Shown piece by piece: positions 2,747-45,851 of a stretch of 64,000 nt of DNA. A model generated the notes under the pieces. It was not told the origin of the DNA. It searched no databases and was given only the letters and a program-made list of their open reading frames with translations. This stretch comes from Escherichia coli (GTDB lineage Bacteria > Pseudomonadota > Gammaproteobacteria > Enterobacterales > Enterobacteriaceae). A program made the position numbers and the translations under genes. Position 1 is the stretch's first letter. Each line of letters begins with the position of its first letter. Where the stretch lies: NCBI GenBank assembly GCA_025544715.1, contig GCA_025544715.1_4109.3. One strand, 5' to 3'.

Positions 2747-3859
2747 TTAGAACATTTGTTTGATTGCTTCGTAACGAAGTTCACAAACAAAATCACGAAT
2801 TTCTGACGTTTCAAGTTCACCATCTTTAACCATTTGCTGAATATCAGGTAATTCAACATCAGTATAACGATCATAAACTTTAATAATTAGATCTTCAAGT
2901 TCTAAATCAATTTCTTTTCGCAAAATGAAGTATTCCAAAACTTTATAAAGGAATTCTTCACCTCCGTTATTTTTAATATTCATATCCAATAAAATATTAC
3001 CCATTTCAATTGGGGTCTTTTTACGGAATGTTTTGATATCATCACGGAAACGTTTGATATAATTACTAAATTTAACATACTTAACTGGAACTTTAATAGC
3101 ACCGTTAAGTACTGAATCATTATTTACTTCTTCATTTTCTAGAAGAATAGACCACAGAAAATATGGTTTATATACATCAGTACAGTTATCTGAAATATAA
3201 TCAATAAGGTCTAAATTCTTTTTGGTCAAAGATGTATTAAACACCTTTTCGTAATAACCAAATTTACTTAGCGTCTTAAGGAACTTTGAAGGCTTTTCTT
3301 CAGAAAATGCTTTTTCGAATTCCACAAAAACACGGTCAGGAACAAGATGATTTAGCTCACCACTATTGACCATTCCAATAGCGAGTTCCTCAGTGCTTTC
3401 ATGAATAGTAAAGTCTGAATAACGAGTAGCAAATCGAGCAAGACGTAACACGCGTAATGGATCTTCTTTAAAATGGTCAGAAACATGACGTAGTACCTTG
3501 TTCTTGATATCAGCTTTACCACCGTATGGATCGATGTGAATTTGTAGTACTGGATCATACGCAATTGCATTAATTGTAAGGTCACGGCGATACAAATCTT
3601 GTTCTAGTGTTACGCCTTTTGTATCCACTTCAAAGCCACCATATCCAGTACCAGTTTTACGCTCAGTACGGGCTAATGCGTGTTCATTACCTTCTGGACT
3701 TAGATATACTGGGAAATCCTTACCTACTTGCTTATAGCCAATACTTTGCAAGTACTTAAGATCAGATTCGGATGCACCAACAATGACATAATCTTTGTCT
3801 TTTGCACGAAGACCCATTAAACGGTCACGGACGTAACCGCCAACCAAATACTTTTTCAT
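2747..3859 (-). CDS. cca: CCA-adding tRNA nucleotidyltransferase
   Basis: N-terminal GGYVRDRLMG...DKDYVIVG head-domain motif of class II tRNA nucleotidyltransferases; 370 aa. Confidence 0.75.
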   Translation of the reverse strand: MKKYLVGGYVRDRLMGLRAKDKDYVIVGASESDLKYLQSIGYKQVGKDFPVYLSPEGNEHALARTERKTGTGYGGFEVDTKGVTLEQDLYRRDLTINAIAYDPVLQIHIDPYGGKADIKNKVLRHVSDHFKEDPLRVLRLARFATRYSDFTIHESTEELAIGMVNSGELNHLVPDRVFVEFEKAFSEEKPSKFLKTLSKFGYYEKVFNTSLTKKNLDLIDYISDNCTDVYKPYFLWSILLENEEVNNDSVLNGAIKVPVKYVKFSNYIKRFRDDIKTFRKKTPIEMGNILLDMNIKNNGGEEFLYKVLEYFILRKEIDLELEDLIIKVYDRYTDVELPDIQQMVKDGELETSEIRDFVCELRYEAIKQMF

Positions 3860-3860
3860 G

Positions 3861-3983
3861 TTATTCCCCCATCAACCAATCACGTAGACGTTCCCAGAAG
3901 CCTTTTGGTTGGTATTCTGGGTATTCATATTCATCAGTGCCTTGCTCGGAAACACCCCAATCTTCTTCTAGCATAGCAATCAT
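3861..3983 (-). CDS. small acidic protein (40 aa), not in ORF track
   Basis: ATG preceded by GGAGG 5 nt upstream; MIAMLEEDWGVSEQGTDEYEYPEYQPKGFWERLRDWLMGE; fills the gap between flanking genes. Confidence 0.4.
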   Translation of the reverse strand: MIAMLEEDWGVSEQGTDEYEYPEYQPKGFWERLRDWLMGE

Positions 3984-10845: not shown

Positions 10846-11234
10846 TCTTCAATCTCCATAGAATTATCATCATCATAATCATCACTGGTGTACTTAGTTT
10901 TTACCTCAATACCATTCTCATGTAGGTATGTGATAAAACCATTACCATAAACGAATTGATTATAATATGTATTTTCTTCTACATGTGCATCATAATCATC
11001 TTCATAATATGTGGGTATTGTAACATCATGACCGACACTTTGCAAGTACTGGAACAATTCTTTCAGTACTACTTCGATATCACCTTCTTCTGTGCCATAA
11101 CAGTAAGCAGGTTCACCATGAGTGAATTTGAAACCTTTACAGGAAACTGTATAAATATCACTCATTTGTATACCACAATCATCACATTCATGTATAGAAC
11201 AATGCTGGTGGAATTTAATCTTTTTGATTTGCAT
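10842..11234 (-). CDS. hypothetical acidic protein (130 aa)
   Basis: ORF. Confidence 0.45.
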   Translation of the reverse strand: MQIKKIKFHQHCSIHECDDCGIQMSDIYTVSCKGFKFTHGEPAYCYGTEEGDIEVVLKELFQYLQSVGHDVTIPTYYEDDYDAHVEENTYYNQFVYGNGFITYLHENGIEVKTKYTSDDYDDDNSMEIED

Positions 11235-13000: not shown

Positions 13001-13181
13001 TCTCAAATTTTGGACGGATCTTTCTTGTACCAAAATTTAGAGAGCGAAAGCGGGTTGCTCGGTTTCTCTCTATCGCAGTCATATGCAACGGTCGCTGGTC
13101 TTTTCATCAACAGCACTCAGTACTAACTCTATTCGATCAAAGTAGTACCTGTTCTCAAATTTTGGACGCAACTTTCTTGTA
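13001..13181. repeat. direct repeat pair (about 29 bp, 152 bp apart) with associated hairpins
   Basis: tctcaaattttggacg-N4-tttcttgta at 13001..13029 and 13153..13181; first copy sits in a 12-bp bulged stem 13002..13042, second overlaps an 8-bp stem 13164..13192. Confidence 0.6.
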
Positions 13182-13457
13182 AAATTGCGTCCGCTATTCT
13201 TAAACTCCCTTAGCAAATCTGGTAAGGTGCGAACCTTATACATCTATCTAGGAACTCTCTGTATGCTTATCGGAGTTCTTTATACAGCCGTGTCGCCGTG
13301 ATTCGTGGTCTTACATCGTGTTTGTTTAAATGCCAGTACTCTAACAGGTTTCTTCTGCTGTTCGCTACAACGGTAAAGCTCATCTATCCTTTACATTTTC
13401 AAGAGAAGTAGGTTCTCAGTGTCCATTTTTCAATGTCCGTTGTCATTTTCTATATAC

Positions 13458-13466
13458 ATTATATCA
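13458..13466 (-). promoter_or_regulatory. extended -10 promoter element (TGaTATAAT)
   Basis: Minus-strand TGATATAAT downstream of the 13487 stop, reading into the non-coding locus. Confidence 0.35.
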
Positions 13467-13486
13467 TTGGAACATATAATGTCCCA

Positions 13487-26277: not shown

Positions 26278-28974
26278 TTACCAGTTTATGGTTCCTGTTT
26301 GTGATGGTAGACCGTAGCTAACTGGGAACGATGAACCTGCTGATTCAAGTGAAGCACCAAATATATCTAAACGTGAACGTTTTTGTATATTAATTGTTTC
26401 GATTTGAATTGCATTAGTTTGAATTGTACCTATCCAAAAAATATTATATGCAGTTGTTCCTGTTTCAGAAATAACATCAGTAGTTATGTAATAGTTTGCC
26501 AATCCTTGGTCCAATTTAACATATACATAAAATGTTGTATTTGCTGGATTAGACTTAATAGTTCTCAAATCAATATTTGAAACTGGTAGTGAAAATGACT
26601 TACCTGAAAGAATAACTGGTGTTTCTTCTGTAAAATATACAATAAACCCTTGAGCAACGTCCTGTGATACTACGTTAATTGGGCTACCTTGTGCAGTCCA
26701 GTTATTATAGTCTGTAATCGTTGTCCCATATTTTTTGAATGTCATTTTATTTGAGTAATCCATTGGTTCAAAAATTCCAAAACCAATACCAGGTAACGCT
26801 GCTGGTTGACTTCCCTGTTCATAACTGGCATGAGAACCAGTAATTATAAAACTTGTAAATTGTGCAGTTGATTTAGTTACATATGCTCTAAATTGATGAG
26901 TTGCAGTATTACCTATTGTTGGATGTGATAATGGGTCAGAACCACCAATGAAGTAGAATGAACCTCCATCATATATTGTCAAACCAACAGAAGAAGATGC
27001 AATCGAACCATTTCCAGTTGGTGTAAAGTTATCACCATACGTATTCTCAAGTACTAAACGCTTGAATGTAATAGATGTAATATTACCAACTCTAGTATTG
27101 ACGTTAACTTCAGCAATTCTAATATAGTTTCTATAATCATTAGTAATTGTACTCAACATAACAAAAGCTGGAATGTCTGTTTGTTGTGGAACAAATAGTG
27201 TCATATCACGGTATGCTTGTGGTGATAAATTCCAATCACTTAGAACTTTAGCATATTCAGTATTTCTAAAATTGTCCAGTACTGATTGTGTAACACTTAT
27301 AATGCCTGTACCATTTAAGTTTTTATCATAGGATAATGATTGTGAATAACGTTGCCCAACCATAAAAATACCACCATTGGTTGTAACAGTTGACCCAGAA
27401 ATACTACTAATGAAAATTCTATTATTTGCATTATCATCAACGTTAGCACGTTCAACTGTAGGTTCATAACCTTGTATTGTTCCTAAAGATAATGATTTAA
27501 ATGTAAAATTAGGAGTACTTTTATGAACTGCATATGATGGTCTAAATCCACCACTACCTGATGCACGTGAATATTGTTTAGTACTGTTATCTGGTAGTAA
27601 TTCTACACCATTAATAAATGAACCAACCGCTGAACCAAAAGACGGGCGAACTATACCACCTTTGAAGTCAGTAGAAAGTACAGCACGCACATTCAGCATA
27701 CTATAAACTATTTGAATAGGAAACTTAGCTTTTTGCATAAGCAATGGTTCTGCTAAGTTTGGACATGCAGTACAAAATGCTTCACCTGAATTTAAATAAA
27801 AATATGAACTGTAAATATTCCTTGCATTTGCATGGTTATACAATGGATCGTTATTTAAAACGTTTCCAGTAGGAACTAATGCTGAACCGGTATCAGTAAT
27901 AACTAATGGTGCTTGGTATGAACCAATATCATTACCTGCATCTAATGTACATTGTTTAGTACTCATGTTGAATACAAAACTGTAACTATGTTGTGGTCGT
28001 GTATTATAAGTTGCCATTGTGAACCAAGCATCACCATTCATTCTAAAGCGGAAGTTCTGTGTACCTGGCTGCTGTGCAACACATAAATCGATTGATGTCA
28101 TGTAAATCCCAATACCACGTAGATTTTTTGGAACATACACATAAGGTTTATCAGCGATATTTGTTGATGTTACCTGATTAGTTATAACCATATTATTTTG
28201 TGCAGAATAAGTTGTGTTATAAAATGTTTTAGTAGTCCATCCAGTAACACGAGTTGCGGTATAAGTACCATTACTGATATTATAAACCACTTTAACTACA
28301 ACTAATTGTAATTGGTTATTTGCATTAAGTACGTTAAAAACATATATAGAACCATCTTCTGCCATCATAGCATATTCAATACCACCTTCAGGTGATATAT
28401 CTGCTTGGTTAACGAAAAAACCAGTATGCAATTTATCATCTAATGTACCATTAGTAATTGATATGAACAAACCATTAGTACTGTTAGAAGTGTCTACATA
28501 TCTACCGAGTAAAATATTTGGATCAGTATTGTATAAGCCAATTGCGACTCGATTAGAACCGAAAAAACCAGGCTTGTATTGACGACTGGTGTTAATTGTA
28601 CGGCTCATGTCATCAACTGATAATGCGTTAGCCAAATATGAATAAAATAATCCCTCAACACTACCGTTTGTTCCACTACGTAAAAGTACTAGTGTACCAT
28701 CGTTTTCTAATAAAATTTTATTTCTACGTTGGGTCTGGTTTTCGGATGCACCATTGAAATCTCCAGAAACACCAGCAGGTAGATAGTTTTGTGAACCATA
28801 ATGGGAGATTGGCATCATGCTTACTATATCTAGTACTTCATCTCTGGAATACGTGTCTAATTCCATGTTACCATTTGAATCAAACACTTGTTCATTTATT
28901 CCTTGAATTGTTCTTTTACCATTAACTGTCACATTATGTGTGACATCTAAGCCACCATATATTTTCTTTGACAT
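26278..28974 (-). CDS. tail fibre protein (898 aa)
   Basis: Paralog of 22933..25662 at both termini; preceded by TATAAATA late promoter. Confidence 0.6.
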   Translation of the reverse strand: MSKKIYGGLDVTHNVTVNGKRTIQGINEQVFDSNGNMELDTYSRDEVLDIVSMMPISHYGSQNYLPAGVSGDFNGASENQTQRRNKILLENDGTLVLLRSGTNGSVEGLFYSYLANALSVDDMSRTINTSRQYKPGFFGSNRVAIGLYNTDPNILLGRYVDTSNSTNGLFISITNGTLDDKLHTGFFVNQADISPEGGIEYAMMAEDGSIYVFNVLNANNQLQLVVVKVVYNISNGTYTATRVTGWTTKTFYNTTYSAQNNMVITNQVTSTNIADKPYVYVPKNLRGIGIYMTSIDLCVAQQPGTQNFRFRMNGDAWFTMATYNTRPQHSYSFVFNMSTKQCTLDAGNDIGSYQAPLVITDTGSALVPTGNVLNNDPLYNHANARNIYSSYFYLNSGEAFCTACPNLAEPLLMQKAKFPIQIVYSMLNVRAVLSTDFKGGIVRPSFGSAVGSFINGVELLPDNSTKQYSRASGSGGFRPSYAVHKSTPNFTFKSLSLGTIQGYEPTVERANVDDNANNRIFISSISGSTVTTNGGIFMVGQRYSQSLSYDKNLNGTGIISVTQSVLDNFRNTEYAKVLSDWNLSPQAYRDMTLFVPQQTDIPAFVMLSTITNDYRNYIRIAEVNVNTRVGNITSITFKRLVLENTYGDNFTPTGNGSIASSSVGLTIYDGGSFYFIGGSDPLSHPTIGNTATHQFRAYVTKSTAQFTSFIITGSHASYEQGSQPAALPGIGFGIFEPMDYSNKMTFKKYGTTITDYNNWTAQGSPINVVSQDVAQGFIVYFTEETPVILSGKSFSLPVSNIDLRTIKSNPANTTFYVYVKLDQGLANYYITTDVISETGTTAYNIFWIGTIQTNAIQIETINIQKRSRLDIFGASLESAGSSFPVSYGLPSQTGTINW

Positions 28975-29008: not shown

Positions 29009-29016
29009 TATTTATA
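29009..29016 (-). promoter_or_regulatory. T4-type late promoter TATAAATA
   Basis: Exact TATAAATA on minus strand 35 nt upstream of the tail-fibre ATG at 28974, just after the nrdG terminator. Confidence 0.5.
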
Positions 29017-39049: not shown

Positions 39050-39601
39050 CTATAGATAACTAATTAGTAAGTTTTCTTTTTGAACCAGATACTCCAATTC
39101 TTGTTTTGCTGTACCGATGAAGTTCTGTGTCATAAGATTATTATATCCCGCTTCTCGATTTTGTCCCTTAGAATAACGAGAAATATGACATAAATTTACA
39201 CCAGCAACTTCAGCACTCGCATGTTTAGCATTAGTGTATCCATCTCTAATGTGTTTCAACTCGTCATAGCTTACTTCATAGCTAAAACTATGACTGTTTG
39301 CACCTGGGTAAATTTCAAAAGTTTTGAGTGGTCGGAGATGGGAAACAAAAATATTGTAATCCATTTCTTCTTGAACTTCACGACGCAATGCATCTTCTAA
39401 TGAGATATCAGTACTTTCTACGGTTCCACCACATCCACCAAGAAGACCATCCCATCGTAATTGTAGTAAAACTAAATTTACTTCTGGTATATCATTCAAC
39501 TCATAGTTTTTGTAAGGGTTGCATTTTCTTGCAAAGAAATAACAAAATACAAAATTTGCACGTGAGCCATATTCACCAAAGGGAACTTCTTTAACACTCA
39601 T
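39050..39601 (-). CDS. Nudix hydrolase (183 aa)
   Basis: Nudix box GGCGGTVESTDISLEDALRREVQEEM; ATGA overlap with Sir2 gene. Confidence 0.55.
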   Translation of the reverse strand: MSVKEVPFGEYGSRANFVFCYFFARKCNPYKNYELNDIPEVNLVLLQLRWDGLLGGCGGTVESTDISLEDALRREVQEEMDYNIFVSHLRPLKTFEIYPGANSHSFSYEVSYDELKHIRDGYTNAKHASAEVAGVNLCHISRYSKGQNREAGYNNLMTQNFIGTAKQELEYLVQKENLLISYL

Positions 39602-40356
39602 TTCATACGTTCCTTAATTATAGTCTCTAGATGTGGTATTGCTTTGGTTGCTGGCTTGATAACTTTTTCATTAAACAAAAAATCATTATCATTTTTACGA
39701 ATGTTAACATTAACACTATAACATGGCAATGCTGCTGCTAATCTCGACCATACCAGTACTGTATCGCTACTACCAATTACAATAACTGTATCATTTTCAT
39801 TAAGAGATTTCAACACATTATTTCGTTCTTCGTAAATTGGTAAGCGAATACCATCAACATAACGATGATATTCTCCAATCATTACTACATTTGGTTTAGC
39901 AAAAACATCATGCTTTGGTATGTATGGTTCGTATCCGCAGTTAATAACATTATAATCATCGGAATTAATACTATAATTTTCAATAACTTCGCACAAGTTT
40001 CCATGAAGTTTAAGCTCATGACCACCAATACGAGTATAAAGATCATCCATGTTAGAAGTCATATGAAGGAAGCAATCACCATATTGATCTTCTAACGATT
40101 TTATAAAATAATGCATTGCATTGGGTTCGCATTGTCCCAATTTTACACGTAATGTATTATAGAAGGAATGAACAACGTGATATTTTGTAGTTAAACTAGC
40201 AATGTTACATACATCATTAATTTTAAATGTATCCCACAAACCATCATCAAATCGAAAAGGTTCCATACCACTTTCAACGGAAAGTCCTGCACCTGATATA
40301 ATCAGTAATCGTTTTTTACCTTCATTGCTTATAAATTTTTCTGATATCATATTCAA
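39598..40356 (-). CDS. Sir2-family (sirtuin-fold) NAD-binding protein
   Basis: ISGAGLSVESGMEPFR (GAGIS..SG.P.FR) and SNMDDLYTRIGGHELKLHG (NxDxL...LHG catalytic His); no zinc-ribbon CxxC pairs seen. Confidence 0.6.
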   Translation of the reverse strand: MNMISEKFISNEGKKRLLIISGAGLSVESGMEPFRFDDGLWDTFKINDVCNIASLTTKYHVVHSFYNTLRVKLGQCEPNAMHYFIKSLEDQYGDCFLHMTSNMDDLYTRIGGHELKLHGNLCEVIENYSINSDDYNVINCGYEPYIPKHDVFAKPNVVMIGEYHRYVDGIRLPIYEERNNVLKSLNENDTVIVIGSSDTVLVWSRLAAALPCYSVNVNIRKNDNDFLFNEKVIKPATKAIPHLETIIKERMK

Positions 40357-40359
40357 TCC

Positions 40360-40554
40360 TTATAAAAAACCAATTAAATATATTGATAATAACAGAATGA
40401 TTCCAATATGATAGGCATACATAAAATTATTATCTTTGTGATAACCTTTGGATGTCAAGTCCCTATATAAGCATTTAGCATTGTTATAAATTACAACAAT
40501 AGAAAAAACTATAAAAAAACTCAAAACCCATTCATAAATTGTGTATGCCATCAT
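40360..40554 (-). CDS. small two-TM membrane protein (64 aa)
   Basis: Two hydrophobic helices. Confidence 0.4.
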   Translation of the reverse strand: MMAYTIYEWVLSFFIVFSIVVIYNNAKCLYRDLTSKGYHKDNNFMYAYHIGIILLLSIYLIGFL

Positions 40555-40572
40555 CTATTCTCTCTTATAATT

Positions 40573-41169
40573 TTAATACTTTAAAACATCAAACTCTGCA
40601 CTTACACTAGTTACATTATCACTGACAATTTTAAAAATTGATTTGATGCGTTCATGTAGTGGTACTTTTGATTCATTCTCAACTTCAATATATGCTTGCA
40701 TTGCTGCAATAGCATGATATGTCCCGCTACCTACGGCTGTGATTCGTGTTTTCGGTTGAAGAACTGAAAAATCTTCTTGAACTTCATAAATTGTATGATT
40801 GTGGAGAATGATGAACTGACCACCACCTACTTCTTGTGAAGGATCACGAGAACCCCATTCCTCTTTGAACATTTGACGAATAATAGGAATAACTTTCAGT
40901 ACTAAGTACTGTGGGAACGTCTCATTGGCATCTTGCTGTGGTAGATTCAAACTGTAAGTAAGAAGTTGACCCATACGGAATGATGTGGTGTAACCAATCG
41001 CCATAATTTCTTTTGTACGGGTCAAACCAGCATCATCATTGATTTTAATGAATTCTTTCTCAAATACTTTAGGCTCAGTTTGAACTGATTTTGTGAAACC
41101 ATTACTTCCTAGTTTGTCCCCTGCAATAAAAGAAGTTACACCATCAGTGTGTGCAATGATACATGTCAT
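40573..41169 (-). CDS. HslV/proteasome-beta-like Ntn-hydrolase peptidase
   Basis: MTCIIAHTDG...IAGDK and ITAVGSGTYHAIAAMQAY resemble HslV TTIVSV...IAGDGQ and IAIGSGG.YA.AAARAL; start re-assigned to ATG giving N-terminal Thr (ATGA overlap with upstream stop; track 41238). Confidence 0.55.
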   Translation of the reverse strand: MTCIIAHTDGVTSFIAGDKLGSNGFTKSVQTEPKVFEKEFIKINDDAGLTRTKEIMAIGYTTSFRMGQLLTYSLNLPQQDANETFPQYLVLKVIPIIRQMFKEEWGSRDPSQEVGGGQFIILHNHTIYEVQEDFSVLQPKTRITAVGSGTYHAIAAMQAYIEVENESKVPLHERIKSIFKIVSDNVTSVSAEFDVLKY

Positions 41170-41426
41170 AAAATAGCTCCAATTGCAAATAAAGTTGTAT
41201 ATAAAATATAAATCAATGTACCTAATAACATTAGACACACCAAATATGATGTTGCCAGAACATAATAAATTATTGCTTCAAACTTTGAATTGAACTTCAT
41301 TGTTGTGTTATCAATAAAGCCATTTTTGTAATCTTTGTAAATGAAAACTGTTAGGAAAAGTACAGTAATATACATCACTACTGTAGCATAAAAAATAATA
41401 GATGTCAAATTTTGGATGTTTGTCAT
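41166..41426 (-). CDS. membrane protein (86 aa)
   Basis: Multiple hydrophobic helices. Confidence 0.4.
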   Translation of the reverse strand: MTNIQNLTSIIFYATVVMYITVLFLTVFIYKDYKNGFIDNTTMKFNSKFEAIIYYVLATSYLVCLMLLGTLIYILYTTLFAIGAIL

Positions 41427-41496
41427 AGTTATATAATCTCAATATAATTAATAACAAAGGAAGTACAACATAATCATCCTGTTATTTTAATTATTT

Positions 41497-42105
41497 TTAT
41501 TGGTTTACTGATCCATATCGGATTAGTTCAGTTTTTGTCAAGATAACAACATCTTCACCACGAGAACGGCTAACTTTATATAGAACGTCTGGTGGAATTC
41601 CATTTGCAGAATATAGTGTAAATAGAAAACCTACTTTAGTTGCCATTTCTTCAGTAAAAGTTGATAGCTGCCTAACTGATACAAAAGAATTATCACCGTC
41701 TTTAACATTACTTTTAATAGAAATGTTATGAAGTCCCAGTACTGAGCGATTTATCATGTATCGCTTTTCAAAAGCTACACTAAAGAATACCACAGTACAT
41801 GCTGAGTTGCAATACCTAGAAACAATTAAATTTATACCATTGTCTCTAACGAAGTTTGCCATTTTAATTCCAGCATCAAAATCACCACCTGGTGATGTGA
41901 TTGTAATGGTATCATAGTGTTCTTTATCATACAACTCCATCATACGCTTGAGTGATCCATCTGTAATATCTGAGATGAAATATACATTACGTGTTTCTGG
42001 ATTGTACTTTATCACATTTTTACGTTCAACACCAGCACTGGCTGGAAAATTTATCAACATCAGAAGCATTACTGCTTGTACTACCTCAAGCCATAGTCTT
42101 TTCAT
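41497..42105 (-). CDS. secreted ClpP/S49-fold serine-peptidase-like protein
   Basis: Signal peptide MKRLWLEVVQAVMLLMLINFPASAG; ITSPGGDFDAGIKMANF resembles the ClpP/SppA SPGG serine motif; AAGGA RBS. Confidence 0.45.
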   Translation of the reverse strand: MKRLWLEVVQAVMLLMLINFPASAGVERKNVIKYNPETRNVYFISDITDGSLKRMMELYDKEHYDTITITSPGGDFDAGIKMANFVRDNGINLIVSRYCNSACTVVFFSVAFEKRYMINRSVLGLHNISIKSNVKDGDNSFVSVRQLSTFTEEMATKVGFLFTLYSANGIPPDVLYKVSRSRGEDVVILTKTELIRYGSVNQ

Positions 42106-42133: not shown

Positions 42134-42141
42134 TATAAATA
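42134..42141 (+). promoter_or_regulatory. T4-type late promoter TATAAATA (plus strand)
   Basis: Exact TATAAATA about 147 nt upstream of the only plus-strand gene pair. Confidence 0.35.
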
Positions 42142-42287
42142 ATATAGTACTTAAACACTTAAGTCAAACTTTTTCTGTACTTAACTCAAATTTCCCTCAT
42201 CAGATAATCCCCTTAGTACAATCACTGTGAAGATTCTATCACAAACCCATACCAAATGTAAAGCTTTTTTTATAAGGAGTGCCCTTC

Positions 42288-44213
42288 ATGGGAAAACCAA
42301 TTGCAGGACAAGACCAATTTCCATTCACTATAGGTGGATATTTAGTTGATGGTGCAAACATAAAAGGTACAACATATGTAAAATCGTTGTACATCTACAA
42401 ACAGCGTTCCTCTGATTTGTATGATTTAATGGATTCAAATGGAACAATATATCGTTTTATTCGTATTGTTGGATATGGTCAAGATGGTAACAGATTAAAT
42501 TATTTTACACCAGCAGAAGAAATTGTACCAAATCTGGCGACCAATACATTTTTTATAAAAGTTCAAGATGCTGAAAGAAATATATTTTCATTTGTTAGAT
42601 TGTACCAATTAAATAAAATAATAACATTCGATGGTGATTATATTTTTAGAAAAATAGATAAAGATCGTTATCTAAGTGGTGTGTTAATTCAACCATCATT
42701 AACTACATTACAAGTTGGTAAAACCAGTTCACTGCATTGTGTATTCTACCCTAATGATTACTATGATACTGATGGAACTTGGTACATAAACGACCATTCT
42801 GATATAAATCCAGAAATACCTAGTAAGTATGCTAAAATCATAGAATATAATAAAAATGAAGTATCTATTGAAGGAACATCGGTGGGTATGTCAATACTTT
42901 CATTTGTTCCTAAAAATAATAAATCCATAATTTCACATTCTCTTATTAACATTGTTAATGAAAATGTAGATATAGAATACATGGTTGCCGAAAGAAGTTC
43001 TCCATTTTTTAATCATTATATTGGCAATGAATGGACTATTCAAATAGTCACATATCCGTATGACGCGACTATACAATACCCTCTTGAAATCGTAATCGAT
43101 GCGGAAGTAGATCCTTATATGAAAATTGCCACTACCGAGTTAGTTGGAGTCTCTGAAAATAATAAAATATATACATTTAAATCAACACTTGAGCCAGATT
43201 TAGAATATTATATAGATTATTATCCACAAATCACCTTCACTATGAATGAACCTTACAAATTTAGTGCATTGTTTGAAAATAAAATTTGTTTGTCTGGTTG
43301 GGAAAGATATTGTGAAAAAATTACCAGTCCTGGAAAGTTATTTTCTATTGATGAATATGTACGTCCAAACACGACTAAAACATTAAAATATTGGTTAATG
43401 AATGATTATGACCAACATATGTATCCAATACGTTCAACTGATGATGAAATTGCCACAATTGATGTAACAACTGGTATATTGAGAACTTACGATAAAAGAG
43501 GAACAGTATCTTTCTATACAAATTATACTGATATAACTACTGGGGCCATTAGTCAAGATGAATATTTAGTTGGGAAACTAACCGTTACAGACGATGTGTA
43601 CGATTTAATCGAGGTAGAACCATCAAATATACAATATATGTTCCCAAATCAATCACAACAATTCACGTTAACTGGTTATAGAGAAGGTTATCCAAATACA
43701 TCTTTTAATGTTAATGTAAGTATGTTGAACAATTATGCAACTTCTTCAAACAATATCGTCACTATTAACGAAAATACATCTAATAACTCTAGATTTAAGA
43801 TAGTATCAGATTTCAATGGTAATTATAAAAACTTTAGTAGTATATATTCTAATCAAACACCATCTATTATAGTAAAAACAAATCCAAATGATTTAACTCC
43901 AATACAAAGTATTGATGTTTCTGAAAATGAAATTTTATCTATAAGAATGGCTGAAGAAAATGAAATAGATGATTATAAAGTTAGTTTTTATCCAAAACCA
44001 AATTATTGTGTTAATTATGAACTTGAAATTGTATCATATGATAATACTATAATTGAAATATATGATAAAGAAAATGCATTAAAAAACGGGCTAAATTATT
44101 ATGGTAATATTATGTTATACATAACACCAAAAAGTCCTGGAAGTACCGAGATTGTTGTTAGATCTGTTCATTACCCAGATGTACAACAATCTGTAAAAGT
44201 AGTTGTTTATTAA
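42288..44213 (+). CDS. virion-surface-type protein with bacterial Ig-like (Big_2-like) repeats
   Basis: ATG with AAGGAG RBS (track gives GTG at 42279); segments such as IQPSLTTLQVGKTSSLHCVFYPND and the C-terminal block fit Big_2-like patterns; N-terminal 110 aa duplicated in next gene. Confidence 0.5.
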   Translation: MGKPIAGQDQFPFTIGGYLVDGANIKGTTYVKSLYIYKQRSSDLYDLMDSNGTIYRFIRIVGYGQDGNRLNYFTPAEEIVPNLATNTFFIKVQDAERNIFSFVRLYQLNKIITFDGDYIFRKIDKDRYLSGVLIQPSLTTLQVGKTSSLHCVFYPNDYYDTDGTWYINDHSDINPEIPSKYAKIIEYNKNEVSIEGTSVGMSILSFVPKNNKSIISHSLINIVNENVDIEYMVAERSSPFFNHYIGNEWTIQIVTYPYDATIQYPLEIVIDAEVDPYMKIATTELVGVSENNKIYTFKSTLEPDLEYYIDYYPQITFTMNEPYKFSALFENKICLSGWERYCEKITSPGKLFSIDEYVRPNTTKTLKYWLMNDYDQHMYPIRSTDDEIATIDVTTGILRTYDKRGTVSFYTNYTDITTGAISQDEYLVGKLTVTDDVYDLIEVEPSNIQYMFPNQSQQFTLTGYREGYPNTSFNVNVSMLNNYATSSNNIVTINENTSNNSRFKIVSDFNGNYKNFSSIYSNQTPSIIVKTNPNDLTPIQSIDVSENEILSIRMAEENEIDDYKVSFYPKPNYCVNYELEIVSYDNTIIEIYDKENALKNGLNYYGNIMLYITPKSPGSTEIVVRSVHYPDVQQSVKVVVY

Positions 44214-44229
44214 TAAGAGGAAATAAAAT

Positions 44230-44607
44230 ATGAAAGCTATAGCAGCACAAGGTAAATTACCATTCAATATCGGCGGCTTTTGTGTAACCGCAGCTAATAT
44301 AAACGGTGAATTGAAATATAACTTGAACATCTTTAATCAACGTTCTAGTTGTGTTTACGATCTTATCGACACTGATTTTAATGTTTATCGTTTTGTAACT
44401 ATAACAAGTTTTGATAAAGATAAAATCAGATTAGACGCATCTAAAACTGCACTAGAGATTGCACCAACTTTAGCAAAAAATACTTTTTGTATTAAGATTG
44501 ATGATAGTGCATTTGCCGAATCATTCCAGTTTCATAAAATTAAATTGAGTACTGGAGAAATGAAATATCACCCTTGGGATTTGTATTATTGTAACATCCC
44601 TGGTTAA
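44230..44607 (+). CDS. standalone paralog of the N-terminal domain of 42288..44213 (125 aa)
   Basis: Shares G.LPF.IGG..V..ANI.G...Y, QRSS.vYDLiD, YRFV.I, NTFcIK; AAGAGGAAA RBS. Confidence 0.5.
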   Translation: MKAIAAQGKLPFNIGGFCVTAANINGELKYNLNIFNQRSSCVYDLIDTDFNVYRFVTITSFDKDKIRLDASKTALEIAPTLAKNTFCIKIDDSAFAESFQFHKIKLSTGEMKYHPWDLYYCNIPG

Positions 44608-44639
44608 CAAAAAAGGAGCCACAAGGCTCCTTTTTTTTA
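44608..44639. terminator. bidirectional rho-independent terminator
   Basis: A7-ggagcc-acaa-ggctcc-T8; ends both the plus module and the convergent minus gene. Confidence 0.6.
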
Positions 44640-44894
44640 TTCTACAGTATTAAGCTTCTGACAAATCATGTCAGCTTCTACTCGGTCTTTATAATAAATG
44701 GTAAATCCAAATCTACTTGTTACCCTTTTCTCACTACGGTGTATACAGTTTACAATATAGTACTTATTATTTTGTGCAGAAAAACGAACTTCATAATTTC
44801 GAAAATAAGTATTAGGTTCATCTATAGCAACTATATATAACATAAAAATGAAAAGCACTATTATTAGAAAAGCAATAATAATTATTACTGTCAT
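44637..44894 (-). CDS. membrane-anchored protein (85 aa)
   Basis: N-terminal TM IIIIAFLIIVLFIFMLYIVAI. Confidence 0.45.
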   Translation of the reverse strand: MTVIIIIAFLIIVLFIFMLYIVAIDEPNTYFRNYEVRFSAQNNKYYIVNCIHRSEKRVTSRFGFTIYYKDRVEADMICQKLNTVE

Positions 44895-45370
44895 TTATCA
44901 AGACCCTTATCATAAATGCAATTAACAATAATTCCAGCATCTTCCAGTACTTTAATAGCTTCTGGTGGTGTACGAGGATAATTTTTGAGATAAATTACAC
45001 GTGAAATACCACTACCCGCAATCAACTTAGAACAAGTATAACATGGTTGTAGTGTTGTGTAAAGAGTAGCACCTTGACGTTCAGTAGGAGAACTATAGAG
45101 TAAAGCGTTCATTTCGGCATGGATTTCATGAATATTACTCCACTCATGATGTTGATGCTTTGCTTCATCACTAACCCAGTCTTGAAAAGACCCATCATTT
45201 ACTAAGTGTTGATTCACGTCACAGCAATTTGGTTGTTTTGATGGAGTACCATTGTATCCAGTACTCAATACTCGATTATTTTTAACAATAACACAACCAA
45301 CTTTTTGTGAAATACATTTACTTTCCTCAGCAACTACTTCTGCTATCTTCAACCAAGTCGTATGTTTCAT
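44891..45370 (-). CDS. cd: dCMP deaminase
   Basis: HAEMNAL and PCYTCSKLIAGSGI zinc motifs, N-terminus like T4 Cd; start set to ATG (MKHTTW), track 45382. Confidence 0.8.
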   Translation of the reverse strand: MKHTTWLKIAEVVAEESKCISQKVGCVIVKNNRVLSTGYNGTPSKQPNCCDVNQHLVNDGSFQDWVSDEAKHQHHEWSNIHEIHAEMNALLYSSPTERQGATLYTTLQPCYTCSKLIAGSGISRVIYLKNYPRTPPEAIKVLEDAGIIVNCIYDKGLDK

Positions 45371-45851
45371 TATAAGCTCCAATACTTAACAATGCGTTTT
45401 TACACAAATCATGAATTTTCATAACTCGAATATAGTTTAACACATCTGTTTCATTAATTTCAAATGGTTTATCTGCATATGTAGACCACGTTTGATTTAA
45501 TTCAATAACAAATGTAATTTTATCTGTATCCATAATATTATCACAAAATCTACGAAAATCTTGCTCTTCATCGGAAAGTCTGAAATTTAAATCATTTTTT
45601 AAACCATTAACTGTGAAGCAAATACCAGTACTGTAACCTATGCAAATATCTTCAATATCATATAATCCATAAATTAATTTAGAGATAAACGTGCTATATT
45701 TGTTTCTATGATAATAGTTTAATATTTCTTTTTTAATATTATTTTCAATATCAGTAGTTTTTTGTAATGTAAGTTTAATTAATTCTAATGTCTTGATTAT
45801 GTTATCTAACCAGATATTAGTATCATCTATACTTAGGTGTGTGTATTTCAT
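45327..45851 (-). CDS. hypothetical protein (174 aa)
   Basis: ORF. Confidence 0.4.
   Translation of the reverse strand: MKYTHLSIDDTNIWLDNIIKTLELIKLTLQKTTDIENNIKKEILNYYHRNKYSTFISKLIYGLYDIEDICIGYSTGICFTVNGLKNDLNFRLSDEEQDFRRFCDNIMDTDKITFVIELNQTWSTYADKPFEINETDVLNYIRVMKIHDLCKNALLSIGAYNETYDLVEDSRSSC

What the first reader, a model, noticed from the sequence alone, without database searches (positions are those of the whole stretch)
42134..44639. Only plus-strand module: late-promoter-driven Ig-like-repeat protein plus a standalone copy of its N-terminal domain
In a window otherwise entirely minus-strand, two plus-strand genes sit between a TATAAATA motif and a strong bidirectional terminator. The 641-aa product has several Big_2-like segments after a novel roughly 110-aa N-terminal domain; the next gene (125 aa) is a diverged standalone copy of that N-domain only. 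This suggests a virion decoration or adhesin protein and a competing or partner anchor protein.
Basis: partly seen in the sequence, partly recalled or inferred. Interest (0 to 1): 0.6.

Follow-up and report, generated by a model that had tools for sequence, protein, structure and literature searches.

The report
Jumbo-phage surface protein pair sharing an anchor
Two late genes of a 121Q-like jumbo coliphage share an uncharacterised N-terminal domain that most likely fixes them to the virus particle: one carries five antibody-like domains and is a rare, dispensable, fast-evolving surface "hair", and the other is the bare anchor, which is an abundant virion protein in a close relative.

Summary
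The window is an Asteriusvirus (121Q/PBECO4-like jumbo coliphage). ORF-A (42288-44213, 641 aa) and ORF-B (44230-44607, 125 aa) are its only real plus-strand genes. They sit between a TATAAATA motif and a strong bidirectional terminator.

- **Shared domain:** their N-terminal domains are homologous (43% identity, E=4e-25).
- **ORF-A:** the anchor plus five predicted Ig-like beta-sandwich domains (AF2 pLDDT 83.6). Only two are detectably Big_2, and Pfam finds nothing.
- **N-domain:** no Pfam family and no significant PDB fold match. It forms a small family (91 representatives in 1.84 billion proteins), always at residues 1-~125, usually followed by Ig-like arrays.
- **Virion evidence:** phAPEC6 gp347 (98% identical to ORF-B) was detected with 75% coverage. 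Two Ig-bearing relatives (phAPEC6 gp077, CBB_112) were also detected.
- **ORF-A is rare and dispensable:** 121Q lost it by an 1814-bp deletion between 8-bp repeats, PBECO4-type phages lack it, and A4 has fragments.
- **ORF-B origin:** an anchor-only truncation of a separate paralogue lineage, not a copy of ORF-A.

Most likely this is a Hoc/pb10-like accessory display system at a hypervariable locus. The binding site and any competition between paralogues are untested.

The parts
42134..42141 (+). TATAAATA, T4-type late-promoter-like motif
   Evidence: 3 copies in the window against 12.9 expected. The motif and the following ~60 nt are invariant in 121Q and PBECO4. ATAAATA lies upstream of the first + gene in 9 of 13 related loci. 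The other intergenic copy (29009-29016, -) sits 34 nt before the orthologue of a virion protein gene. The CBB paper predicts ATAAATA late promoters plus a gp55-like sigma factor (PMC5259590).
42142..42287 (+). 146-nt leader with SD AAGGAG at 42274-42279
   Evidence: No significant RNA structure (z = -0.25). No Rfam hit.
42288..42662 (+). ORF-A residues 1-125: family-specific N-terminal (putative virion-anchor) domain
   Evidence: Matches phrog_33171 (E=3e-21) and phrog_10468 (E=2e-18). Mean identity is 0.79 within the ORF-A family. AF2 core pLDDT is 80-90, while the most conserved residues 1-15 are below 50. No Pfam hit.
42672..42965 (+). ORF-A D1 (aa 129-226): Big_2-like Ig domain
   Evidence: The family profile hits the Big_2 domain of PDB 7quz at E=3e-4. 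hhalign against canonical Big_2 repeats gives E=2e-4. BLASTP matches the first Big_2 repeats of UE-S1 and A4.
42966..43307 (+). ORF-A D2 (aa 227-340): beta-sandwich domain, Ig-like by fold only
   Evidence: AF2 strands. Foldseek matches to tandem-Ig proteins. hhalign against Big_2 finds nothing. Family identity 0.43.
43308..43595 (+). ORF-A D3 (aa 341-436): Big_2-like Ig domain
   Evidence: hhalign against Big_2 repeats gives E=1.2e-6, probability 91%.
43596..43889 (+). ORF-A D4 (aa 437-534): beta-sandwich, the most variable domain
   Evidence: Family identity 0.41, window versus others 0.25. hhalign against Big_2 gives E=0.016.
43890..44213 (+). ORF-A D5 (aa 535-641) and stop codon
   Evidence: AF2 pLDDT 82-94. 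Family identity 0.45.
42367..42374 (+). Left copy of the 8-bp direct repeat GTACAACA (121Q deletion junction)
   Evidence: 121Q gp472 (43 aa) consists of the first ~29 codons of ORF-A joined, out of frame, to its last 33 nt.
44181..44188 (+). Right copy of GTACAACA. The 1814 bp between the two copies are missing in 121Q
44230..44607 (+). ORF-B, 125-aa anchor-only protein (orthologue of 121Q gp471, PBECO4 gp098 and phAPEC6 gp347)
   Evidence: Matches phrog_33171 at E=3e-88. 98% identical to phAPEC6 gp347, which was detected in virions with 8 peptides and 75.2% coverage (PMC7247149). Its own SD GAGGAA lies 16 nt after the ORF-A stop.
44609..44636 (.). Bidirectional intrinsic terminator shared with the convergent 85-aa gene

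Best explanation
This is a late-transcribed, two-gene operon for accessory virion-surface proteins of a 121Q-like jumbo coliphage.

Both products begin with the same ~120-residue domain. This domain is found only at the N-terminus of proteins of Rak2-like jumbo phages. I infer that it is the module that fixes these proteins to the particle.

ORF-A adds a ~500-residue string of five Ig-like beta-sandwich domains. I estimate this at roughly 20 nm, assuming about 4 nm per Ig domain (my own estimate). I infer that it projects from the particle and makes weak, probably glycan-directed contacts with cell or environmental surfaces, as proposed for T4 Hoc and T5 pb10.

ORF-B is the anchor alone. It occupies the same kind of site without displaying anything.

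The most likely site (inferred, about 40%) is the centre of the T=28 capsid hexamers, where 121Q and phAPEC6 show an unassigned protruding decoration density.

The locus, which lies between the ClpP-like protease gene and dCMP deaminase, is a gain/loss hot spot. The anchor is conserved, the Ig part evolves fast, and ORF-A is dispensable.
For: **Shown in the sequence**
- Gene structure, promoter motif and terminator.
- N-domain homology at E=4e-25.
- In the N-domain family, all but two of the 91 representatives (out of 1.84e9 proteins) match from their first dozen residues, extending to about residue 125. Protein lengths run from 42 to 1859 aa.
- 42 of 87 scanned representatives carry Pfam Big_2, and others carry Big-like, Invasin_D3 or Big_1.
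- The ORF-A model has pLDDT 83.6 and is all-beta with about six domains. It matches NUP210, S-layer proteins, cadherins and a phage SU10 virion chain.

**Virion association (literature)**
- phAPEC6 gp347, 98% identical to ORF-B, gave 8 peptides and 75.2% coverage. This is the highest among the entries of the 62-protein table that I read (MCP 74.9%).
- phAPEC6 gp077 (anchor plus ~260 aa) gave 10 peptides and 37.8% coverage.
- CBB_112, the syntenic anchor plus Big_2 protein, gave 4 peptides.
- An anchor-only protein being in virions argues that the anchor is sufficient for incorporation.

**Conservation gradient**
- Mean pairwise identity in the ORF-A family: N 0.79, D1 0.61, D2-D5 0.41-0.51.
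- Against more distant phages the N-domain stays 60-67% identical, similar to dCMP deaminase (69-72%) in the three most distant loci (L012, L014, L006). The C-terminal part levels off at about 32%.

**Dispensability**
- 121Q has an 1814-bp deletion between GTACAACA repeats. PBECO4-type phages lack the gene. A4 retains fragments.

**Unassigned densities**
- 121Q and phAPEC6 have an unassigned fibrous density at every hexamer centre, plus fibres on the capsid and tail.

**Promoter**
- The other intergenic TATAAATA in the window precedes the orthologue of virion protein gp323c.
Against: - There is no direct evidence that ORF-A itself is in virions.
- No phage carrying an ORF-A-type gene has been studied by proteomics.
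- The binding site is unknown. It could equally be the tail sheath rings, where phAPEC6 also has fibres.
- phAPEC6 and 121Q show their fibres without having ORF-A.
- The hexamer-centre density looks dimeric or trimeric in the published maps, which is not obviously what a monomeric Hoc-like protein would give.
- The promoter motif lies 146 nt upstream of the ATG, further than in related loci (36-43 nt in UE-S1, CBB, L014 and gp155). Its activity is unproven.
- The N-domain model has low confidence for residues 1-15 and 115-125.
- MS coverage is only a rough proxy for abundance.
Confidence: 0.62

Rival explanations
1. The N-domain anchors to the contractile tail rather than the capsid, at the sheath rings, collar or distal ring. 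On this view ORF-A is one of the 'hairy whisker' fibres seen on Rak2-like phage tails.
For: phAPEC6 has fibres at three annular positions on the sheath, and small decoration proteins at the collar and the distal tail. CBB has tail whiskers. Ig-like domains commonly decorate tail tube and sheath proteins (Fraser 2006, cited).
Confidence: 0.2
2. ORF-B is a partner rather than a competitor. N-domains would homo- or hetero-oligomerise, so the anchor-only protein forms the base or adaptor that recruits the Ig-bearing paralogues (gp155-type, ORF-A) to the particle.
For: The hexamer-centre density in phAPEC6 looks dimeric, with two arms. ORF-B is kept at 98-99% identity in all Asteriusvirus isolates while the longer paralogues come and go. 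Loci often pair a long gene with an anchor-only gene: the window, A4, L012 and L013.
Against: RaK2, CBB, UE-S1 and L014 have an Ig-bearing gene at the locus and no anchor-only gene there. So an anchor-only partner is not generally needed. No oligomer prediction could be run.
Confidence: 0.12
3. ORF-A is an essential receptor-binding protein (a tail fibre or spike equivalent) that determines host range.
For: It has a conserved N-terminus and a hypervariable C-terminus, the pattern typical of receptor-binding proteins.
Against: Near-identical phages that also infect E. coli lack it entirely (121Q, PBECO4, phAPEC6 and about 20 others). No trimeric fibre, beta-helix or tip domain is predicted, only monomer-like Ig strings. 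The homologous anchor also occurs alone.
Confidence: 0.04

Closest known systems
T4 Hoc (highly immunogenic outer capsid protein)
   Same: Both are non-essential, late, accessory virion proteins built from a string of Ig-like domains plus one non-Ig attachment domain. Hoc binds as a monomer at hexamer centres and is implicated in adhesion and dispersal (review PMC7602432). 121Q and phAPEC6 have an unassigned density at hexamer centres.
   Different: The attachment domain is N-terminal here, whereas in Hoc it is the last (fourth) domain. No sequence relationship was detected: no Pfam hit, and the family profile does not hit RB49 Hoc or any decoration protein in the PDB at E<=0.1. This locus also has five rather than three Ig domains, several paralogues per genome, and an anchor-only paralogue.
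T5 pb10
   Same: A monomeric decoration protein at the hexamer centre with an Ig-like domain exposed to solvent. It is dispensable, with roles in stability and adhesion (PMC7602432). From my own knowledge (Vernhes et al. [quoted passage not shown]
Ig-domain 'structural proteins' of Rak2-like jumbo phages (RaK2 gp496, CBB_112, GAP32 Ig-domain protein, 121Q gp155 and gp471; PHROGs 33171 and 10468)
   Same: True homologues. They share the N-domain and the syntenic locus between the protease gene and dCMP deaminase, as lone + strand genes among - strand genes. RaK2 gp496 was already suggested to act in phage-host interaction (PMC3622015).
   Different: ORF-A belongs to a subfamily whose Ig part has diverged beyond Pfam recognition. 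That subfamily is absent from all 50,697 deposited phage records. It is known only from metagenome assemblies and one 'E. coli' contig.
Lambda gpV-type 'major tail protein' (the RefSeq label on the RaK2, CBB and GAP32 homologues)
   Same: They share only a Big_2-type Ig domain at the C-terminal side.
   Different: The N-domain shows no tail-tube fold. The label is most likely a transfer from the Big_2 domain.

Membership tests
Rak2-like jumbo-phage N-terminal anchor-domain family (phrog_33171 / phrog_10468) | Significant sequence match to the ~120-aa N-domain | tested here: met
   ORF-B matches phrog_33171 at 3e-88. ORF-A matches phrog_33171 at 3e-21 and phrog_10468 at 2e-18. The profile search returns both proteins.
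Rak2-like jumbo-phage N-terminal anchor-domain family (phrog_33171 / phrog_10468) | Domain located at the extreme N-terminus, followed by zero to many Ig-like domains | tested here: met
   (matches begin at residues 1-13 in all but two representatives). (Big_2 in 42 of 87). for ORF-A.
Rak2-like jumbo-phage N-terminal anchor-domain family (phrog_33171 / phrog_10468) | Syntenic + strand locus between the ClpP-like protease (or NUDIX) gene and dCMP deaminase | tested here: met
Rak2-like jumbo-phage N-terminal anchor-domain family (phrog_33171 / phrog_10468) | Presence in purified virions | not testable with these tools
   Shown by MS only for orthologues and paralogues: phAPEC6 gp347 and gp077, and CBB_112. 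No data exist for ORF-A or for this phage.
Pfam Big_2 (PF02368) domain proteins | Pfam hit at or above the gathering score | tested here: not met
   No Pfam family at E<=1 for ORF-A.
Pfam Big_2 (PF02368) domain proteins | Profile-level homology of individual domains to Big_2 | tested here: inconclusive
   D1 gives E=3e-4 against the Big_2 domain of 7quz and 2e-4 by hhalign. D3 gives 1.2e-6, D4 gives 0.016, and D2 and D5 give nothing.
Ig-like beta-sandwich tandem arrays (fold level) | Predicted fold matches tandem Ig-like domain proteins | tested here: met
   AF2 pLDDT 83.6. Foldseek probability 1.0 to NUP210, SbsB/SbsC/EA1, cadherins and SU10 chain 7z4b_DW.
T4 Hoc family | Sequence or fold homology of the capsid-binding domain | tested here: not met
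T4 Hoc family | Binding at the centre of capsid hexamers | not testable with these tools
   There is only circumstantial evidence: an unassigned hexamer-centre density in 121Q and phAPEC6.
T5 pb10 | Fold homology of the N-terminal capsid-binding domain | tested here: not met
Tail tube / 'major tail protein' (lambda gpV-like) | Tail-tube fold in the N-terminal domain | tested here: not met

The most novel reading that the evidence does not exclude
The N-domain is a previously undescribed capsid-docking module for the hexamer centres of the T=28 Rak2-like capsids. On this reading, several paralogues per genome (anchor-only, short and long Ig arrays) compete for the same ~270 sites. Gene gain, loss and truncation at one recombination hot spot would then tune how much, and what kind of, 'fur' the particle displays. 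The anchor-only ORF-B would act as a blank that sets fibre density. That would be a natural plug-and-display system, and a ready-made display tag for jumbo capsids.
Probability: 0.25. Interest if true: 0.6.

Novelty: new variant of a known kind. Interest (0 to 1): 0.4.

Why it matters
- **Unassigned densities:** the decoration densities on the 121Q and phAPEC6 capsids, and their capsid and tail fibres, have been unassigned since 2017-2020. This family gives concrete candidates. Its anchor-only member has the highest MS coverage among the phAPEC6 virion-protein entries I read.
- **An untested idea:** if the anchor is a hexamer-centre plug, a bare-anchor paralogue sharing sites with Ig-bearing ones would be a simple way for a phage to regulate surface display. 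This has not been described for Hoc or pb10.
- **A sampling bias:** cultured Asteriusvirus isolates have repeatedly lost the long, fast-evolving ORF-A type, which metagenomic relatives keep. Isolates may therefore under-represent the natural surface of these phages.
- **Practical uses:** the label 'major tail protein' on homologues should be treated as doubtful. The 120-aa domain is also a candidate display tag.

Tried and rejected
- **Pfam:** a scan of both proteins found nothing at E<=1.
- **PDB sequence search with ORF-B:** only chance hits to mL38, E about 0.4.
- **BFVD:** only family members, plus weak uncharacterised hits (Atu_ph07 and uncultured phages).
- **phiKp24 high-resolution capsid paper:** not relevant. 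It describes a different capsid (T=27, a single large MCP, no decoration proteins).
- **PBECO4-type filler:** I tested whether the 123-nt sequence upstream of ORF-B is a remnant of another ORF-A allele. Neither hmmsearch nor tblastn gave a significant match, so its origin is undetermined.
- **Leader RNA:** no structure (z=-0.25).
- **Rfam and tRNA scans of the window:** none.
- **Complete E. coli genomes:** ORF-A DNA finds no match in 5,426 genomes, so there is no evidence of a resident prophage form.
- **Word-index homologue search with ORF-B:** too insensitive, only 2 hits. I replaced it with the HMM search.
- **Rejected readings:**
  - ORF-A as an essential receptor-binding protein, because close relatives lack it.
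  - ORF-A as a decaying pseudogene, because the ORF is intact, at least 16 full-length homologues exist, and the fold prediction is confident.
  - ORF-B as a recent duplicate of ORF-A's N-terminus, because it is closer to P0028, P0029 and P0030, which are long forms of another lineage.
Full report
**Where we are.** The window is about 94% identical in DNA, over the parts that align, to Escherichia phage 121Q, PBECO4, phAPEC6 and some 20 other Asteriusvirus jumbo coliphages of 320-380 kb. Flanking proteins are 94-100% identical to those of 121Q. The exact ORF-A protein is on record only from an NCBI 'Escherichia coli' assembly contig of 68,122 bp (WP_262845365.1) and one short Logan contig.

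**Observation check.**
- ORF-A runs from ATG 42288 (SD AAGGAG 42274-42279) to stop 44213, giving 641 aa. ORF-B is 44230-44607, 125 aa, with its own SD 16 nt after the ORF-A stop.
- These are the only + strand ORFs of 70 aa or more that are not almost entirely overlapped by - strand ORFs. Among ORFs of 100 aa or more, 82 are minus and 12 plus.
- TATAAATA lies at 42134-42141. The octamer is strongly depleted in the window, with 3 copies against 12.9 +/- 3.8 expected.
- The hairpin at 44609-44636 is a textbook bidirectional terminator: -17.1 and -18.2 kcal/mol, z about -6.2, with U-runs on both strands.
- ORF-A residues 3-111 align with ORF-B residues 2-104 at 43% identity, E=4e-25.
The caveat is that Pfam does not recognise Big_2, or anything else, in either protein, and ORF-A has no internal sequence repeats.

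**What ORF-A looks like.**
- An AlphaFold2 model built on 26 homologues has mean pLDDT 83.6 and is all-beta. It has an N-domain (about residues 16-120) and five beta-sandwich domains of roughly 95-115 residues: D1 129-226, D2 227-340, D3 341-436, D4 437-534, D5 535-641.
- Foldseek against the PDB returns tandem Ig-like arrays at probability 1.0: NUP210, the S-layer proteins SbsB, SbsC and EA1, cadherins, complement MG domains and a phage SU10 virion chain.
- At the sequence-profile level, only D1 and D3 are detectably Big_2. D1 gives E=3e-4 against the Big_2 domain of 7quz and 2e-4 by hhalign against the canonical Big_2 repeats of phages UE-S1 and A4. D3 gives E=1.2e-6 at 91% probability. D4 is marginal, and D2, D5 and the N-domain control are negative.

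**The N-domain.**
- It has no Pfam family and no PDB sequence relative.
- In BFVD it matches only homologues from Rak2-like phages, plus weak hits to uncharacterised proteins.
- It is not unknown to databases. It defines phrog_33171 (the 125-aa form) and the N-terminus of phrog_10468 (the 384-aa form), both labelled 'virion structural protein'.
- An HMM search of 1.84 billion representatives finds only 91 proteins. In all but two, the match starts within the first dozen residues and extends to about residue 125. Their lengths run from 42 to 1859 aa, including at least ten anchor-only forms of 102-141 aa.
- Of 87 scanned, 42 carry Pfam Big_2, 16 Big-like, 6 Invasin_D3 and 4 Big_1. The family architecture is therefore [N-domain] followed by n Ig-like domains, with n from 0 upward.
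- The first 15 residues (MGKPIAGQ.QFP) are the most conserved stretch in the ORF-A family but are predicted disordered. I read this (inference) as a peptide that becomes ordered only against its binding partner.

**Evidence that these are virion proteins.**
- phAPEC6 gp347 is 98% identical to ORF-B. It was identified in purified virions with 8 unique peptides and 75.2% coverage, the highest among the entries of the 62-protein table that I read; the major capsid protein has 74.9% (PMC7247149).
- The second paralogue of that phage, gp077 (the 121Q gp155 type: anchor plus about 260 residues), was also found, with 10 peptides and 37.8% coverage.
- CBB_112, the syntenic anchor-plus-Big_2 protein of phage CBB, was found as well, with 4 peptides and 24.3% coverage (PMC5259590).
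- Because an anchor-only protein is in the particle, the N-domain is most simply the module responsible for incorporation. That is an inference.
- ORF-A itself has never been examined.

**The locus is a hot spot.** Every Rak2-like phage examined has + strand N-domain genes between the protease (or NUDIX) gene and dCMP deaminase, but the content differs:

| Phage or locus | Genes at the locus |
|---|---|
| RaK2 | 212 aa |
| CBB | 218 aa |
| UE-S1 | 633 aa, with six canonical Big_2 repeats |
| A4 | Fragments of an ORF-A-like gene, then 722 aa and 124 aa |
| L006 (metagenome) | 391 + 442 + 639 + 606 aa |
| L012 (metagenome) | 125 + 34 + 642 aa |
| L013 (metagenome) | 637 + 162 + 162 aa |
| L014 (metagenome) | 644 aa |

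- ORF-A's subfamily has at least 16 full-length members, at only 36-43% identity to ORF-A, all from metagenome assemblies. None occurs among 50,697 deposited phage genomes or 5,426 complete E. coli genomes.
- Conservation falls along the protein. Mean pairwise identity is N 0.79, D1 0.61, D3 0.51, D5 0.45, D2 0.43 and D4 0.41.
- Against more distant phages the N-domain stays at 60-67%. In the three most distant loci (L012, L014, L006) dCMP deaminase is 69-72%. The C-terminal part sits at about 32%.

**Dispensability and loss.**
- 121Q gp472 (43 aa) is the first ~29 codons of ORF-A joined, out of frame, to its last 33 nt. The junction is an 8-bp direct repeat, GTACAACA (window 42367-42374 and 44181-44188), so 121Q lost 1814 bp by a repeat-mediated deletion.
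- PBECO4-type genomes (about 20 records) keep the promoter motif plus about 60 nt. They then have 123 nt of unrelated sequence and go straight into ORF-B. The origin of that filler could not be determined.
- A4 retains broken pieces of an ORF-A-like gene.
- All these phages are viable isolates on E. coli, so ORF-A is non-essential.

**ORF-B is not a copy of ORF-A's N-terminus.**
- It is 67-68% identical to P0028 (162 aa).
- In the HMM search, the best-scoring proteins after ORF-B's own cluster are the long forms P0029 (312 aa, with Big_2) and P0030 (538 aa), followed shortly by P0033/L6_442 (442 aa).
- These forms continue past the shared ...WDLYYCNIP tail into Ig domains.
- ORF-B ends exactly at that linker, one base before the terminator. 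It is therefore an anchor-only truncation of a second paralogue lineage, fixed at 98-99% identity in Asteriusvirus and seen on more than 130 contigs.

**Transcription.**
- T4-like late promoters (consensus ATAAATA) and a gp55-like sigma factor were predicted for the related CBB and GAP32 (PMC5259590).
- ATAAATA occurs within 300 nt upstream of the first + gene in 9 of 13 related loci.
- The only other intergenic TATAAATA in the window (29009-29016, -) lies 34 nt before an 898-aa gene. That gene corresponds in position and length (898 aa, 2697 nt) to phAPEC6 gp323c (98.6 kDa), a protein detected in virions.
- This supports late expression but does not prove it. The 146-nt leader is unusually long and shows no structure.

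**Mechanism proposed.** The shown steps are the gene pair, the shared domain, the Ig-like array, virion presence of the orthologue and paralogues, dispensability, and hypervariability of the distal domains. The inferred steps are:
- The N-domain docks on a conserved virion protein.
- ORF-A projects about 20 nm as a flexible adhesin, like Hoc or pb10 (properties from PMC7602432).
- ORF-B fills the same kind of site without a payload.

[quoted passage not shown] Tail rings are the main alternative.

**Comparison with known systems, and novelty.**
- Functionally this is closest to T4 Hoc and T5 pb10. It is not a member of either family, since no sequence or fold relationship of the anchor was found.
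- It is a true member of the already-annotated but uncharacterised 'Ig domain-containing structural protein' group of Rak2-like phages. RaK2 gp496 was proposed in 2013 to act in host interaction.
- The RefSeq name 'major tail protein' for homologues is probably a Big_2-driven misnomer.
- I rate it a new variant of a known kind. It has an unrelated anchor domain, a multi-paralogue family that includes an abundant anchor-only member, and a divergent Ig subfamily unknown in cultured phages.
- Interest is moderate (0.4). The biology is plausible and testable and would assign long-unassigned densities, but the overall concept of an accessory Ig-like decoration protein is familiar.

Noticed in passing
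window 29009-29016 (-), gene 26278-28974 (-): The only other intergenic TATAAATA sits 34 nt upstream of an 898-aa gene and just after a terminator-like hairpin that follows an NrdG-like gene. The 898-aa protein matches phAPEC6 gp323c (98.6 kDa) in position and length. gp323c was detected in virions by MS. So within this mostly metabolic region the motif marks virion genes.
   Followed up: partly
whole window; 11150-11157 (+): TATAAATA is about 4-fold depleted (3 copies against 12.9 expected), consistent with selection against spurious late promoters. The third copy lies on the + strand inside a - strand gene and looks non-functional.
   Followed up: partly
window 44637-44894 (-) and 44891-45382 (-): The 85-aa gene next to the terminator is only 75% identical to 121Q gp470 (82% to UE-S1). 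dCMP deaminase is 94% identical, while other neighbours are 97-100%. This is a small mosaic patch next to the variable locus and suggests recombination there.
   Followed up: partly
L002 (PBECO4) about 3806-3928: About 123 nt between the conserved promoter-proximal leader and ORF-B have no similarity to the window or to any ORF-A family C-terminus. The origin is unknown.
   Followed up: yes
L004 (phage A4) 3998-4501: Two short annotated CDS (65 and 43 aa) are fragments of an ORF-A-like gene (42% identity to ORF-A residues 3-160 across the break). This would be a third way of losing this gene type in a cultured isolate.
   Followed up: partly
L006 3411-9818; L013 6759-7732: Metagenomic relatives carry tandem arrays of N-domain paralogues: four genes of 391, 442, 639 and 606 aa in L006, and two consecutive 162-aa genes after the long one in L013. 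This shows expansion as well as loss at the locus.
   Followed up: partly
L005 (RaK2 F403_gp039), L009 (CBB gp112), GAP32: RefSeq calls the homologues 'major tail protein', but the N-domain shows no tail-tube fold. The label probably comes from the Big_2 domain and should not be propagated.
   Followed up: partly
window 13034-13486: A 453-nt stretch has no - strand ORF of 60 aa or more, and only small ORFs on either strand. This is the largest apparently non-coding gap outside the studied module. No tRNA or Rfam hit.
   Followed up: no
window 39598-42105 (-): Immediately upstream on the - strand lies a run of Sir2-like, HslV-like peptidase and ClpP-like protease genes, with NUDIX further on in relatives. 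Between phages, the ClpP-like protease next to the module is one of the most divergent of these neighbours (34-68% identity, against 97.5% to 121Q).
   Followed up: no
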